From the NCBI RefSeq assembly GCF_029227855.1, contig NZ_CP074356.1: 64,000 nt of DNA. One strand, 5' to 3'. Shown here piece after piece: positions 8,875 through 32,360 of this stretch. Below the pieces are notes generated by a model. It was not told the origin of the DNA, did no database searches, and was given only the letters and a program-made list of their open reading frames with translations. This stretch comes from Escherichia coli (lineage in GTDB: Bacteria; Pseudomonadota; Gammaproteobacteria; Enterobacterales; Enterobacteriaceae). Position 1 is the stretch's first letter; each line of letters starts with the position of its first letter. Made by a program: the position numbers and the translations under genes.

Positions 8875-9129
8875 ATGCGTTTACATGTTAAATTGAAAGA
8901 GTTTTTTTCGATGTTTTTTATAGCCATATTATTTTTCCCTGCATTCAATGCTTCTTTATTTTTTACCGGAATTAAACCTCTATATTCAATAATAAAAGGC
9001 TCCACGGAAATATTTTATGATTGGAGAATGTTGATTCTATGCTTCGGTTTCATATCGTTTTCCTTGTTAAATATTCATGTAATTTTACTAACAATAATAA
9101 AATCATTCTTAATAAAAAAACAAAGGTAA
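8875..9129 (+). CDS. small membrane protein, 84 aa, two predicted TM helices; candidate immunity protein
   Basis: ATG 8875 with GAGGA 6 nt upstream, 9 nt after previous stop; very hydrophobic product; ends just after an A7 run at 9114-9120. Confidence 0.4.
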   Translation: MRLHVKLKEFFSMFFIAILFFPAFNASLFFTGIKPLYSIIKGSTEIFYDWRMLILCFGFISFSLLNIHVILLTIIKSFLIKKQR

Positions 9130-9341
9130 TCAATTTCGCCACAGACATAACAATACAGCTAACTCTTATATTTTTACTAATAGCTATCGTAATAGCACCT
9201 TTAATAGCTCCTTTTGTCACAGGATATGTCAATGCTAATTATCACCCCTGCGGTAATAACACGGGGATTTTCCCAGGAGCAATCTATATTAAAAATGGCA
9301 TAAAATGTAATAATGAACATATTTCTCGCAAGGAAGATTAA
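9021..9341 (+). CDS. hypothetical small membrane ORF (frame 0); possibly the 3' part of a frameshifted gene with 8875..9129
   Basis: Overlaps previous ORF in another frame; one hydrophobic helix LTLIFLLIAIVIAPLIAPFV; no convincing own RBS; frames would join with one extra A at 9114-9120. Confidence 0.2.
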   Translation: MENVDSMLRFHIVFLVKYSCNFTNNNKIILNKKTKVINFATDITIQLTLIFLLIAIVIAPLIAPFVTGYVNANYHPCGNNTGIFPGAIYIKNGIKCNNEHISRKED

Positions 9342-10275: not shown

Positions 10276-10546
10276 AATCGGACACTCCCTCGTCTGTCAT
10301 AATCATGGTAATGTTTAGCTAACGATTTTTAATTATATACTCCACTTGAATCAGAACAAACAAAAATAATATTAAATATTAATTCATTAAATCAATAGAA
10401 TAATAAAAATTATAACATGGAAATATATTTAAATTGAATGATTCGCTGGTATTATTAAATATTAATGAATGGTCAATCATATATAATTACCACATTTACA
10501 GCATAACAAAATAATTGAACGAAGAAATTGTGGGGTTTAAATACAA

Positions 10547-10582
10547 AAAAAACCGCAAAATTAAAAATTTTGCGGTTCTCTG
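10547..10582 (-). terminator. rho-independent terminator downstream of aspV
   Basis: On minus strand: stem AACCGCAAAAT/ATTTTGCGGTT followed by T8. Confidence 0.7.
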
Positions 10583-10604: not shown

Positions 10605-10681
10605 TGGCGGAACGGACGGGACTCGAACCCGCGACCCCCTGCGTGACAGGCAGGTATTCTAACCGACTGAACTACCGCTCC
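10605..10681 (-). tRNA. aspV: tRNA-Asp(GUC)
   Basis: 77-nt reverse complement of canonical E. coli tRNA-Asp including CCA; identical to the copy at 19539-19615. Confidence 0.95.
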
Positions 10682-15015: not shown

Positions 15016-15034
15016 CAAATCAGATAATAAATAT

Positions 15035-15058
15035 CCTCCGGCATAGCCGGAGGTTTTT
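15035..15058 (+). terminator. rho-independent terminator of mltD
   Basis: CCTCCGGC-ata-GCCGGAGG stem followed by TTTTT. Confidence 0.75.
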
Positions 15059-15061
15059 CAA

Positions 15062-15742
15062 ATGCGCCTATAAGGCTCTCTTACCAGCCGCGCCCTAACA
15101 GGCGCACACGATCTGACATTTGCATCCAACTTCGTTACTTACGGCCCGTAAACGGGCTGCCCGGATAGGGAATCGATAACTGCTCTCCCATTTTATCCTC
15201 TTCAAGCTGGTGCTTTATGTAATCCTGTATCTTCGCCGTGTTCTTACCCACTGTATCGACGTAGTACCCTCTGCACCAGAACTCCCTGTTCCTGTATTTG
15301 AATTTCAAATCACCAAACTGCTCGTAAAGCATCAGACTGCTTTTCCCTTTCAGATATCCCATAAACCCGGATACGCTCATTTTGGGCGGGATCTCCACAA
15401 GCATATGGATATGATCTGCACAGCATTCAGCTTCCAGAATCCGTACGCTTTTCCACTCACACAGCTTTCTCAAAATACTGCCTATTGCTCTACGCTTCTC
15501 TCTGTAGAACACCTGTCTTCGGTATTTTGGCGCAAAAACTATGTGATATTTACAGTTCCATCGGGTGTGCGCTAAGCTCTTTTCGTTCCCCATTGGGACC
15601 CCCTTTTGATTTCTTGTTTGACACTTGCAGTTGCCAGACCGCAAAGTGTTTTAACAAATCAAAAGGGGTTTTAATAACTGGCTCAAAGCTGAAAGCTTTC
15701 CGGAACCCCCAGCCTAGCTGGGGGTTTTCTGTGCACAATGAA
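15062..15742 (-). mobile_element. IS200-family insertion sequence (IS200/IS605 family), boundaries approximate (+/-30 bp)
   Basis: Single 152-aa Y1 transposase ORF; perfect palindrome AACCCCCAGC-cta-GCTGGGGGTT at 15704-15727; 5' UTR inverted repeat 15596-15672 pairing with the SD; ~0.7 kb extra DNA between convergent mltD and yafE. Confidence 0.65.
15135..15593 (-). CDS. tnpA: IS200-family transposase TnpA (HUH Y1 transposase), 152 aa
   Basis: MGNEKSLAHTRWNCKYHIVFAPKYRR...HIHMLVEIPPK... with HUH motif; start at internal ATG 15593 with GGGGG SD. Confidence 0.85.
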   Translation of the reverse strand: MGNEKSLAHTRWNCKYHIVFAPKYRRQVFYREKRRAIGSILRKLCEWKSVRILEAECCADHIHMLVEIPPKMSVSGFMGYLKGKSSLMLYEQFGDLKFKYRNREFWCRGYYVDTVGKNTAKIQDYIKHQLEEDKMGEQLSIPYPGSPFTGRK

Positions 15743-19878: not shown

Positions 19879-22783
<2,905 letters not shown>

Positions 22784-22966
22784 TCACAACCCGAAGATGT
22801 TTCTTTCGATTCATCATCGTGTTGCGAAAATTTGAGAGACTCACGAACAACTTTCGTTGTTCAGTGTTTCAATTTTCAGCTTGATCCAGATTTTTAAAGA
22901 GCAAAACTTCGCAGTGAACCTTTGCAGGTACACTCTGAAGTATTTTTTATTTAATCACTACAGAGA

Positions 22967-23042
22967 TGGTGGAGCTATGCGGGATCGAACCGCAGACCTC
23001 CTGCGTGCAAAGCAGGCGCTCTCCCAGCTGAGCTATAGCCCC
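22967..23042 (-). tRNA. alaV: tRNA-Ala(UGC), spacer tRNA
   Basis: Reverse complement of GGGGCTATAGCTCAGCTGGGAGAGCGCCTGCTTTGCACGCAGGAGGTCTGCGGTTCGATCCCGCATAGCTCCACCA. Confidence 0.95.
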
Positions 23043-23084
23043 ATAACATGTAGTTAAAACCTCTTCAAATTTGCGGTGCAAATT

Positions 23085-23161
<77 letters not shown>

Positions 23162-23229
23162 GTAGAGGTTTTACTGCTCATTTTCATCAGACAATCTGTG
23201 TGAGCACTGCAAAGAACGCTTCTTTAAGG

Positions 23230-25136: not shown

Positions 25137-25709
25137 TTACGCCGGTTTTTGCTGCTTTTTTATCGCTTGCGGCAGGTCTGCCAGGCTATTTAACACCCAA
25201 TCTGCCGCGTTTTCTGCTTCAGGTGTAATAAGTTTACCCGTACGCACCAGCACTTTTGTTCCCACGTTCGCCGCAGCCGCTGCCTGCATATCTTCTAATT
25301 TATCGCCCACCATATAAGAAGCGGCCATATCAATATGCAAATAATCGCGTGCCGATAAAAGCATCCCCGGATGTGGTTTGCGGCAGTCGCAGACCTGGCG
25401 AAACTCTTCAACACTACCCTGCGGATGATGCGGGCAATAATAGATACCATCCAGATCGACATCGCGGTCCGCCAGCGACCAGTCCATCCACTCGGTCAGC
25501 GTTTCAAACTGTGCTTCAGTAAATTTACCGCGAGCAATGCCAGACTGGTTGGTTACTACCACCAGCGCAAAGCCCATTTTTTTTAGCTCGCGCATGGCGT
25601 CAATAACACCGTCGATAAATTCAAAGTTGTCGATCTCATGGACATAGCCGTGATCGACATTAATGGTGCCATCACGGTCAAGAAAAATTGCGGGTACGCT
25701 CTTCGCCAC
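25137..25709 (-). CDS. gmhB: D,D-heptose 1,7-bisphosphate phosphatase, 190 aa
   Basis: HAD motif FLDRDGTIN; matches GmhB/YaeD. Confidence 0.9.
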
Positions 25710-29765: not shown

Positions 29766-31484
29766 ATGCGTACTAGCCAATACCTGCTCTCCACTCTCAA
29801 GGAGACACCTGCCGACGCCGAGGTGATCAGCCATCAGCTGATGCTGCGCGCCGGGATGATCCGCAAGCTGGCCTCCGGGTTATATACCTGGCTGCCGACC
29901 GGCGTGCGCGTTCTGAAAAAAGTCGAAAACATCGTGCGTGAAGAGATGAACAACGCCGGTGCGATCGAGGTGTCGATGCCGGTGGTTCAGCCAGCCGATT
30001 TGTGGCAAGAGAGTGGTCGTTGGGAACAGTACGGTCCGGAACTGCTGCGTTTTGTTGACCGTGGCGAGCGTCCGTTCGTACTCGGCCCAACTCATGAAGA
30101 AGTTATTACAGACCTGATTCGTAACGAGCTTAGCTCTTACAAACAGCTGCCGCTGAACTTCTATCAGATCCAGACCAAGTTCCGCGACGAAGTGCGTCCG
30201 CGTTTCGGCGTCATGCGTTCCCGCGAATTCCTGATGAAAGATGCTTACTCTTTCCATACTTCTCAGGAATCCCTGCAGGAAACCTACGATGCAATGTATG
30301 CGGCCTACAGCAAAATCTTCAGCCGCATGGGGCTGGATTTCCGCGCCGTACAGGCCGACACCGGTTCTATCGGCGGTAGCGCCTCTCACGAATTCCAGGT
30401 GCTGGCGCAGAGCGGTGAAGACGATGTGGTCTTCTCCGACACCTCTGACTATGCAGCGAACATTGAACTGGCAGAAGCTATCGCGCCGAAAGAACCGCGC
30501 GCTGCTGCTACCCAGGAAATGACGCTGGTTGATACGCCGAACGCGAAAACCATCGCGGAACTGGTTGAACAGTTCAATCTGCCGATTGAGAAAACGGTGA
30601 AGACTCTGCTGGTTAAAGCGGTTGAAGGCAGTAGCTTCCCGCTGGTTGCGCTGCTGGTGCGTGGTGACCACGAGCTGAACGAAGTTAAAGCAGAAAAACT
30701 GCCGCAGGTTGCAAGCCCGCTGACTTTTGCGACCGAAGAAGAAATTCGTGCCGTGGTTAAAGCCGGTCCGGGTTCACTGGGTCCGGTAAACATGCCGATT
30801 CCGGTGGTGATTGACCGTACCGTTGCAGCGATGAGTGATTTCGCTGCTGGTGCTAACATCGATGGTAAACACTACTTCGGCATCAACTGGGATCGCGATG
30901 TCGCTACCCCAGAAATTGCTGATATCCGTAACGTGGTGGCTGGCGATCCAAGCCCGGATGGCCAGGGTACGCTGCTGATCAAACGTGGTATCGAAGTCGG
31001 TCACATCTTCCAGCTGGGTACTAAGTACTCTGAAGCACTGAAAGCCTCCGTACAGGGTGAAGATGGCCGTAACCAAATCCTGACGATGGGTTGCTACGGT
31101 ATCGGGGTAACGCGTGTAGTAGCTGCGGCAATTGAGCAGAACTACGACGAACGCGGCATCGTATGGCCTGACGCTATCGCGCCGTTCCAGGTGGCGATTC
31201 TGCCGATGAACATGCATAAATCCTTCCGCGTACAGGAGCTGGCCGAGAAACTGTACAGCGAACTGCGTGCACAAGGTATCGAAGTGCTGCTGGATGACCG
31301 CAAAGAGCGTCCGGGCGTGATGTTTGCTGATATGGAACTGATCGGTATTCCGCACACTATTGTGCTGGGCGACCGTAACCTCGACAACGACGATATCGAA
31401 TATAAATATCGTCGTAACGGCGAGAAACAGTTAATTAAAACTGGTGACATCGTCGATTATCTGGTGAAACAGATTAAAGGCTGA
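29766..31484 (+). CDS. proS: prolyl-tRNA synthetase, 572 aa
   Basis: [44 protein letters not shown]...; start at conserved ATG. Confidence 0.95.
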
Positions 31485-31493
31485 TGCCAGAAA

Positions 31494-31520
31494 GGGTCCT
31501 GAATTTCAGGGCCCTTTTTT
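31494..31520 (+). terminator. rho-independent terminator of proS
   Basis: GGGTCCTGAA/TTCAGGGCCC stem followed by T6. Confidence 0.75.
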
Positions 31521-31536
31521 ACATGGATTGTATAAA

Positions 31537-32360
31537 ATGGATAAACCAAAGGCGCATTGCCGCCTGCTTCTCCCCTGCTTTTTTTCCTTTCGGCCTGTAC
31601 CGTAGATATCAGCCAGCCGGACTCATCAGCCACAGCGGTAGATGCCGGGGCGAAAACATGGGCAGTCAAATTCCAGCATCAAAGCTCTTTTACCGAACAA
31701 TCAATAAAAGAAATAACGGAACCTGATCTCAAACCCGGCGATTTGCTGTTCTCCTCAAGCCTTGGGGTAACCTCATTTGGAATCCGCGTCTTCAGCACTT
31801 CCTCTGTGAGTCACGTTGCAATCTATCTGGGTGAAAATAACGTTGCAGAAGCGACAGGCGCTGGCGTCCAGATTGTTTCCCTCAAAAAAGCGATGAAGCA
31901 TAGCGATAAGCTTTTCGTCTTACGAGTCCCGGATCTTACCCCGCAACAAGCCACAGAAATCACCGCATTCGCCAACAAAATTAAAGATAGCGGTTACAAC
32001 TATCGCGGCATTGTCGAATTTATTCCCTTTATGGTGACTCGCCAGATGTGCTCACTGAATCCGTTCTCCGAGGATTTTCGTCAACAGTGCGTCAGCGGCC
32101 TGGCGAAAGCGCAGTTAAGCAGTGTGGGCGAAGGAGACAAAAAGTCGTGGTTTTGTTCGGAATTTGTCACTGATGCATTTGCCAAAGCCGGGCATCCGCT
32201 TACACTGGCGCAATCGGGCTGGATTAGCCCTGCCGATCTGATGCATATGCGTATTGGTGATGTCTCTGCGTTTAAGCCAGAAACGCAGTTACAGTATGTT
32301 GGGCACCTGAAGCCTGGGATTTATATCAAGGCGGGTCGCTTTGTTGGGCTGACTCAGTGA
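31537..32360 (+). pseudogene. yaeF: YaeF NlpC/P60-family lipoprotein gene, apparently frameshifted in T7 run 31579-31585 (or sequencing error)
   Basis: ATG 31537 encodes MDKPKAHCRLLLPCFF then hits a stop; body of protein continues in frame 0 from TTG 31557; one extra T would restore a 274-aa lipoprotein with lipobox FLSAC. Confidence 0.55.

What the first reader, a model, noticed from the sequence alone, without database searches (positions are those of the whole stretch)
31537..31600. yaeF 5' end disrupted by a 1-nt deficit in a T7 run
The ATG at 31537 encodes MDKPKAHCRLLLPCFF and then terminates after a few codons, while the rest of YaeF is in frame 0 and only reachable from a TTG at 31557 without a positively charged n-region. 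Inserting one T in the T7 run (31579-31585) yields a continuous 274-aa lipoprotein with a canonical signal peptide and lipobox (…PCFFFLSAC). This is either a pseudogene, a start-site shift that removes lipoprotein targeting, or a homopolymer sequencing error (same signature as at 9114-9120).
Basis: seen in the sequence. Interest (0 to 1): 0.4.

Follow-up and report, generated by a model that had tools for sequence, protein, structure and literature searches.

The report
One-base loss in yaeF T-run
An E. coli lipoprotein gene (yaeF) reads one T short in a run of eight, which breaks its start region; the change is unique to this sequence and is either an assembly error or a recent, ordinary gene-killing mutation, and nothing here is new biology.

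Summary
The window has T7 at 31579-31585. The ATG at 31537 opens a 22-codon frame that stops at 31603-31605. The rest of yaeF (267 codons, to 32360) lies in the -1 frame and can only be reached from TTG 31557.

T7 is derived and private to the window. The closest complete genome (JNEC-KY178, 17 substitutions in 64 kb) and an independent short-read assembly (0 substitutions over 9.2 kb) both have T8 and an intact 274-aa YaeF. No complete RefSeq E. coli genome matches the T7 stretch exactly.

The window's only two indels against KY178 are both 8-to-7 contractions of A/T runs, the longest class present. The other one breaks ykfM. The window spans an rrn operon and an IS200, so it comes from a long-read or finished assembly.

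The same T7 recurs in public assemblies on at least three backgrounds, some error-ridden and some clean. Eight-base runs also vary among clean assemblies of the window's own lineage, so a real mutation is not excluded.

My estimate is about 55% homopolymer under-call, about 40% real recent frameshift that removes lipoprotein targeting, and about 5% anything functional. Only reads or resequencing can decide. Either way the finding is ordinary.

The parts
31579..31585 (+). T7 homopolymer. It is T8 in all close relatives. The one-base deficit shifts the frame inside the part of yaeF that encodes the signal peptide.
   Evidence: The K-12 allele reads TTTCTTTTA here, so the tract is specific to this allele.
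31537..31605 (+). Remnant of the authentic yaeF start: the ATG, 22 codons (MDKPKAHCRLLLPCFFSFRPVP) and a TAG stop. It keeps the positively charged n-region but loses the lipobox.
31557..32360 (+). Main body of yaeF in the -1 frame: 267 codons from TTG 31557. From the residues FFLSAC onward it is identical to the intact 274-aa allele. It carries the permuted papain-like (Peptidase_C92 / NlpC-P60) domain.
31587..31598 (+). Lipobox codons L-S-A-C (CTT TCG GCC TGT), in the downstream frame only.
   Evidence: pattern [LVI][ASTVI][GAS]C.
31489..31520 (+). Terminator-like hairpin with a T6 tail just after the proS stop codon. The yaeF start lies 17 nt downstream.
   Evidence: -20.5 kcal/mol, z = -6.1. 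The consensus scan did not list it.
29766..31484 (+). proS, the intact upstream neighbour. It is useful as a quality control because it is split in the error-rich assemblies that also show T7.
9114..9120 (+). A7 run inside ykfM (A8 in relatives). This is the only other indel in the window against its nearest relative, and it has the same 8-to-7 signature.

Best explanation
This is yaeF, the gene for a permuted papain-like NlpC/P60-superfamily lipoprotein that sits between proS and nlpE. In this allele two substitutions created a T8 tract inside the signal-peptide codons (...PCFFFLSAC). In the window the tract reads T7. This is a derived, private, one-base contraction. It separates the ATG and the charged n-region, which now end in a 22-codon stub, from the lipobox and the catalytic domain. 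The most likely cause is under-calling of the homopolymer length in a long-read-based assembly. In that case the organism has a normal T8 and an intact YaeF. The sequence facts are shown by the tools. The cause is inferred from the pattern and cannot be shown without reads.
For: (1) Against the nearest complete genome, KY178, the window has 17 substitutions and only two indels in 64 kb. Both indels are -1 contractions, and both fall in two of the seven 8-base A/T runs, the longest class. None of the 60 runs of 6-7 bases differs. (2) Both contractions are derived (outgroup strain 7/2) and private. KY178 and SRR5866348 (0 substitutions over 9.2 kb) have T8. KY178 and five independent assemblies of the same lineage have A8 in ykfM. 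(3) None of 5,426 complete RefSeq genomes matches the 94-nt or 321-nt stretch exactly. (4) The window runs through a complete rrn operon and an IS200C copy. Short-read contigs of this region end at or near those elements. The source is therefore a long-read, hybrid or finished assembly. In one nanopore assembly that was analysed, most residual errors were false deletions in homopolymers (PMC12007338). (5) The identical T7 product and the identical truncated YkfM reappear in assemblies that are plainly error-rich, with split proS, tilS, accA and dnaE and many other homopolymer deletions. These tracts are therefore recurrent under-calling sites. (6) Both hits break genes that are intact in every close relative examined.
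Against: The assembly is otherwise very clean. Five of the seven 8-base runs and all shorter runs agree with KY178, and no other gene is broken. That is unlike typical noisy nanopore consensus (versus 21, 28). T7 also occurs in clean-looking short-read assemblies on other backgrounds: L008 and L009, and 20 of the 24 contigs read have an intact proS. Within the window's own lineage, 8-base runs differ among short-read assemblies that show no SNPs among themselves across up to 15 kb of overlap. The run at 10545 is A9 in three assemblies, and ykfM is A9 in one. Real slippage at such runs therefore happens on this timescale. The window's branch also carries four private SNPs, so it is not a zero-length branch. 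The sequencing platform is unknown.
Confidence: 0.55

Rival explanations
1. A real, recent slipped-strand deletion (T8 to T7) in this isolate. It turns yaeF into a pseudogene, or at best into a mistargeted protein. Ribosomes that start at the authentic ATG stop after 22 codons. Any start at TTG 31557 would yield MPPASPLLFFLSAC..., which has a lipobox but no positively charged n-region and only a short hydrophobic core. The enzyme would then not be exported and lipidated.
For: The tract does change in nature or in clean assemblies. T7 occurs on at least three backgrounds, each with a T8 nearest neighbour. T6 occurs in L034, which has no other homopolymer change in 12.7 kb. 20 of 24 T7 contigs read have an intact proS. 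8-base runs vary inside the window's own near-SNP-free lineage. The window is otherwise clean and has four private SNPs. A/T runs of this kind are described as likely hypermutable through replication slippage (PMC1088944). Shine-Dalgarno pairing is weak for both starts (-3.1 and -3.4 kcal/mol, background mean -2.1).
Against: Two independent frameshifts in conserved genes, both contractions and both in 8-base runs, on a branch with only four SNPs in 64 kb is a high indel-to-SNP ratio. T7 is absent from the two nearest relatives and from every complete RefSeq genome with this flank. The two within-lineage run changes seen in other assemblies are expansions, not contractions.
Confidence: 0.4
2. 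The T7 form is functional. Either the TTG start yields an active 267-aa cytoplasmic enzyme (a start-site shift, as NCBI's pipeline annotates it), or low-level transcriptional slippage or a -1 ribosomal slip on U7 restores the exact wild-type protein. In that case the tract would act as an expression dimmer or an on/off switch.
For: NCBI records annotate the T7 allele as a 267-aa YaeF-family enzyme from the TTG. The domain is untouched. A -1 slip of tRNA-Phe on UUU UUU, or one extra U in the mRNA, would give exactly ...CFFFLSAC (read). The tract length varies (T6, T7, T8) across assemblies.
Against: No relative conserves the frameshifted arrangement, and T8 in frame is the rule. K-12-type alleles lack the tract altogether. 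Selection against slippage becomes evident at runs of about nine A/T, not seven (PMC1088944). The TTG product lacks a usable signal peptide. T7 is sporadic and not fixed in any clade examined. There are no expression data.
Confidence: 0.05

Closest known systems
[quoted passage not shown]
   Same: Same locus (proS-yaeF-nlpE). The DNA is identical to the KY178 and strain 7/2 allele except for one T. The same domain hits are found. The family is described in PMC3142127, which notes that many members carry lipoprotein signal peptides.
   Different: The reading frame is broken between codons 16 and 17, so the annotated 274-aa lipoprotein precursor cannot be made from the sequence as written.
Homopolymer-length errors in long-read assemblies (false single-base deletions that fragment genes)
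   Same: A single-base deletion confined to the longest homopolymers, private to one assembly, breaking genes that are otherwise conserved, in an assembly that spans repeats. The same tract is contracted in demonstrably error-rich assemblies (PMC12007338).
   Different: There are no errors in the runs of 5-7 bases, where noisy nanopore consensus usually also fails. The platform and reads are unknown.
Slipped-strand frameshift pseudogenes and simple-sequence contingency loci
   Same: A mononucleotide tract near the 5' end of a surface-protein gene, with more than one length seen among closely related genomes.
   Different: The tract is short (8). It is absent from most E. coli yaeF alleles. The off state is rare and sporadic. 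Nothing shows reversible switching or selection.

Membership tests
YaeF/YiiX permuted papain-like enzyme (Pfam PF05708, NlpC/P60 superfamily) | Significant match to the family profile above the curated cut-off | tested here: met
   PF05708 at 46.2 bits (cut-off 27) and PF00877 at 37.5 bits (cut-off 23) for the 267-aa product. The scores for the intact 274-aa protein are the same.
YaeF/YiiX permuted papain-like enzyme (Pfam PF05708, NlpC/P60 superfamily) | Orthologous position and sequence identity to annotated yaeF | tested here: met
   proS-yaeF-nlpE synteny. The only difference from the KY178 and strain 7/2 yaeF is the missing T.
YaeF/YiiX permuted papain-like enzyme (Pfam PF05708, NlpC/P60 superfamily) | Enzymatic activity with a permuted Cys/His catalytic arrangement | not tested
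   Catalytic residues were not mapped individually. The downstream sequence is identical to the intact allele. The family's properties are taken from PMC3142127.
Bacterial lipoprotein precursor (signal peptidase II substrate) | One polypeptide with a positively charged n-region, a hydrophobic h-region and a lipobox [LVI][ASTVI][GAS]C | tested here: not met
   a rule-based check. The intact allele meets it (net +2, LLLPCFFF, LSAC, Cys21). In the window the ATG product has no lipobox, and the TTG product has a lipobox (Cys14) but no charged n-region. SignalP and LipoP were not available.
Frameshift pseudogene | ORF disrupted relative to intact orthologues, with the disruption being the derived state | tested here: met
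   T8 in the outgroup and in both nearest relatives, T7 only in the window.
Frameshift pseudogene | The lesion is present in the organism's DNA, not only in the assembly | not testable with these tools
   No reads are available. The source assembly could not be traced.
Homopolymer assembly artefact | Indels restricted to long homopolymers, biased to deletion, and private to the assembly | tested here: met
   2 of 2 indels are -1, both in 8-base runs, and both are absent from all lineage relatives.
Homopolymer assembly artefact | Reads or an independent platform contradict the consensus | not testable with these tools
   No read data.
Phase-variable contingency locus | Tract conserved across alleles, with both on and off states common within lineages | tested here: not met
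   The tract is absent from the K-12 allele. T7 is sporadic (at least 29 contigs, against more than 1000 for the intact allele) and is not fixed in L008's background.
Programmed frameshift or transcriptional slippage gene | The frameshifted two-ORF arrangement is conserved among homologues, with a slippery run of about 9 or more A/T | tested here: not met
   Relatives are in frame with T8. The run here is 7. The threshold is from PMC1088944.

The most novel reading that the evidence does not exclude
The allele-specific T8 tract in the yaeF signal-peptide codons is a true mutational hot spot that repeatedly switches this envelope enzyme off (T7, T6) in clinical phylogroup-D-type E. coli lineages. 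Residual slippage on U7 might restore traces of the exact wild-type protein. That would make it a crude contingency-like switch in a species that rarely uses homopolymer switches.
Probability: 0.04. Interest if true: 0.4.

Novelty: already known. Interest (0 to 1): 0.08.

Why it matters
It matters mainly for annotation hygiene. If the sequence is taken at face value, yaeF and ykfM would be scored as lost, or yaeF as a 267-aa non-lipoprotein from a TTG start, as NCBI's pipeline already does for the same T7 sequence in other assemblies. Pan-genome, pseudogene and lipoproteome counts would inherit that call. The case also shows that finding the same frameshifted product in many public assemblies does not prove it is real, because error-prone assemblies reproduce the same miscall at the same tract. 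It opens no biological question.

Tried and rejected
(1) I tried to count T7 against T8 in the 5,426 complete genomes with 46/47-nt queries in which every seed must span the run. Both the T7 query and the T8 control returned nothing, because BLAST's low-complexity filter masks the tract. The test is uninformative.

(2) I tried to trace the window's source assembly through its private TssM L600Q variant with three alternative starts (1174, 1154 and 1144 aa). It is not on record.

(3) I used the window's ProS allele as a lineage marker. It is far too common (29,210 blocks), and all ten places shown have the 274-aa YaeF.

(4) I looked for a clade in which T7 is fixed. In L008's background T8 is the norm and T7 is sporadic. 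L009 has no private protein marker, and the short-flank look-up still merged samples. Inheritance of T7 could therefore not be shown or excluded.

(5) Methylation-motif error signature: none of the window's private SNPs lies in GATC or CCWGG (read from the contexts).

(6) The promoter/terminator consensus scan around yaeF gave no more hits than shuffled sequence.

(7) I considered the 70-aa minus-strand ORF at 31457-31669 that overlaps the tract. I dismissed it as a by-product of the six-frame listing, with no supporting evidence.

Full report
**What is in the sequence**

The window is E. coli chromosome, running from the T6SS genes through proS-yaeF-nlpE to cdaR (annotation transferred from the syntenic region of strain JNEC-KY178).

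- Positions 31579-31585 are exactly seven T.
- The ATG at 31537 encodes MDKPKAHCRLLLPCFFSFRPVP and then meets TAG at 31603-31605.
- The remaining 267 codons of yaeF, ending at 32360, lie in the -1 frame. The only start codon that reaches them is TTG 31557.
- A strong hairpin with a T6 tail (31489-31520, -20.5 kcal/mol, z = -6.1) follows the proS stop. The yaeF ATG is 17 nt further on.

**What the intact gene looks like**

The best-matching complete genomes span 322 bases for the 321-base query. The alignment shows a single difference, T8 instead of T7. There, yaeF is annotated as a 274-aa 'YaeF family permuted papain-like enzyme', WP_021523001.1, beginning MDKPKAHCRLLLPCFFFLSAC.

Both the 274-aa and the 267-aa forms hit Pfam PF05708 (Peptidase_C92, 46 bits against a cut-off of 27) and PF00877. 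The family is the circularly permuted branch of the NlpC/P60 superfamily, and many of its members are fused to lipoprotein signal peptides (PMC3142127).

A rule-based check gave the following:

- The intact N-terminus has a net +2 n-region, a hydrophobic core and the lipobox LSAC with Cys21.
- The window's ATG product has no lipobox.
- The TTG product (MPPASPLLFFLSAC...) has the lipobox but no charged n-region.
- Shine-Dalgarno pairing is weak for both starts.

K-12's allele reads TTTCTTTTA at this site, so the T8 tract is specific to this allele.

**Polarity and privacy of the change**

Over the whole window the nearest complete genome is JNEC-KY178, with 17 substitutions (11 of them inside the rrn operon) and two gaps in 64 kb.

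- Both gaps are one-base contractions of 8-base A/T runs: T8 to T7 in yaeF, and A8 to A7 at 9114-9120, which splits the 155-aa YkfM into an 84-aa stub plus a remainder.
- KY178 has seven 8-base runs in this stretch, the longest class. The window contracted two of them and none of the 60 runs of 6-7 bases.
- With strain 7/2 as outgroup, both contractions are derived in the window, together with four private SNPs. KY178 has two private SNPs and no indel.
- A lineage-specific TsaA allele led to an independent short-read assembly (SRR5866348). It is identical to the window over 9.2 kb apart from having T8.
- A lineage-specific YafT allele led to more assemblies of the same lineage. Five of them, plus KY178, have A8 in ykfM, one has A9, and only the window has A7.
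- No complete RefSeq genome matches the T7 stretch exactly.

**Recurrence elsewhere**

The exact 267-aa product, which only a T7-type frame can give, is already on record. It is found on 29 contigs (41-42 index blocks) under several NCBI accessions and is named as a YaeF-family enzyme rather than a pseudogene.

All retrieved loci carry T7, but on other backgrounds. Several are 0-4 SNPs from strain 7/2, and one is about 30 SNPs from it. T7 is therefore polyphyletic, with a T8 nearest neighbour each time.

The assemblies that carry T7 differ in quality:

- Some are plainly error-rich, with split proS, tilS, accA and dnaE and further deletions in runs of 5-8 bases.
- Others are clean. Of 24 contigs read, 20 have an intact proS.

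In L008's background T8 is the norm, and one assembly even has T6. The truncated YkfM behaves in the same way.

**Weighing artefact against mutation**

For an artefact:

- Both indels are deletions, both fall in the longest homopolymers, both are private, and both break conserved genes.
- The window spans a whole rrn operon and an IS200C copy, where short-read contigs stop. It therefore comes from a long-read, hybrid or finished assembly.
- In one nanopore assembly that was analysed, most residual errors were false deletions in homopolymers (PMC12007338).

For a real mutation:

- The assembly is otherwise clean.
- T7 exists in clean assemblies elsewhere.
- Inside the window's own lineage, 8-base runs differ among short-read assemblies that show no SNPs among themselves across up to 15 kb of overlap. 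The run at 10545 is A9 in three of them.
- Such runs are described as likely hypermutable (PMC1088944).

My rough estimate, which is inference and not a computed probability, is about 0.55 artefact, 0.40 real recent frameshift and 0.05 a functional reading. The tools cannot go further without reads.

**Consequence if real**

Translation from the authentic ATG ends after 22 codons, and no start codon follows the stop in the downstream frame. Initiation at TTG 31557 would compete with the ATG 20 nt upstream and would give a protein without a usable export signal (this is inference). The outcome would be loss of the envelope lipoprotein, which is an ordinary pseudogenisation.

A -1 slip on U7, or one extra U in the transcript, would regenerate the exact wild-type protein. 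However, seven bases is below the length at which selection against slippage becomes evident (PMC1088944), and no relative conserves the shifted arrangement.

**Verdict**

This is a known gene carrying a known kind of lesion or error. The same sequence is already present in public records. It is of low interest beyond a caution about annotation.

Noticed in passing
window 9114-9120 (ykfM, 8875-9341): An A8-to-A7 contraction splits the 155-aa YkfM into an 84-aa stub and a 106-aa ORF. It is private to the window. Five assemblies of the same lineage plus KY178 have A8, and one (L031, DRR794474) has A9. The same 84-aa stub is on record in 47 index blocks from several backgrounds.
   Followed up: yes
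window 10545-10552 (intergenic, upstream of tRNA-Asp at 10605-10681): This A8 run is A9 in three independent assemblies of the window's lineage (L026, L027, L030) and A8 in the window, KY178 and L028, although these assemblies show no SNPs among themselves across the overlaps. It looks like a real, inherited homopolymer polymorphism.
   Followed up: partly
window 25577-25584 (gmhB): This T8 run inside gmhB is intact in the window. It is contracted to T7, splitting gmhB into 146 and 50 aa, in L007, L010 and L011. It is another tract that is repeatedly shortened in public assemblies.
   Followed up: partly
L034 8620-8625 (GCA_974488985.1): The yaeF tract is T6 here, giving a 291-aa ORF that runs in from upstream. 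There is no other homopolymer change in 12.7 kb.
   Followed up: partly
window ~15032-15736: An IS200C-family element (tnpA) lies between mltD and a methyltransferase gene. It is shared with KY178 but absent from strain 7/2 and from L014-L016. Alignments to those loci break at this point.
   Followed up: no
window 21555-23219 (23S rRNA and the 16S-23S spacer of the rrn operon): Eleven of the 17 substitutions against KY178 cluster here in small groups. This looks like differences between rrn copies (gene conversion or copy assignment in assembly) rather than point mutation.
   Followed up: no
window 4372 (tssM codon 600): A private T-to-A change gives TssM L600Q. This exact protein is absent from a collection of about 15 billion proteins under three alternative starts, so the source assembly is not on record there.
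   Followed up: yes
NCBI protein records EKO4495896.1, EMO7739223.1, ENG6786726.1, HBL6981883.1: The annotation pipeline names the T7 allele as a 267-aa YaeF-family enzyme from a TTG start instead of flagging a frameshift. The lesion is therefore invisible in protein-level surveys.
   Followed up: partly
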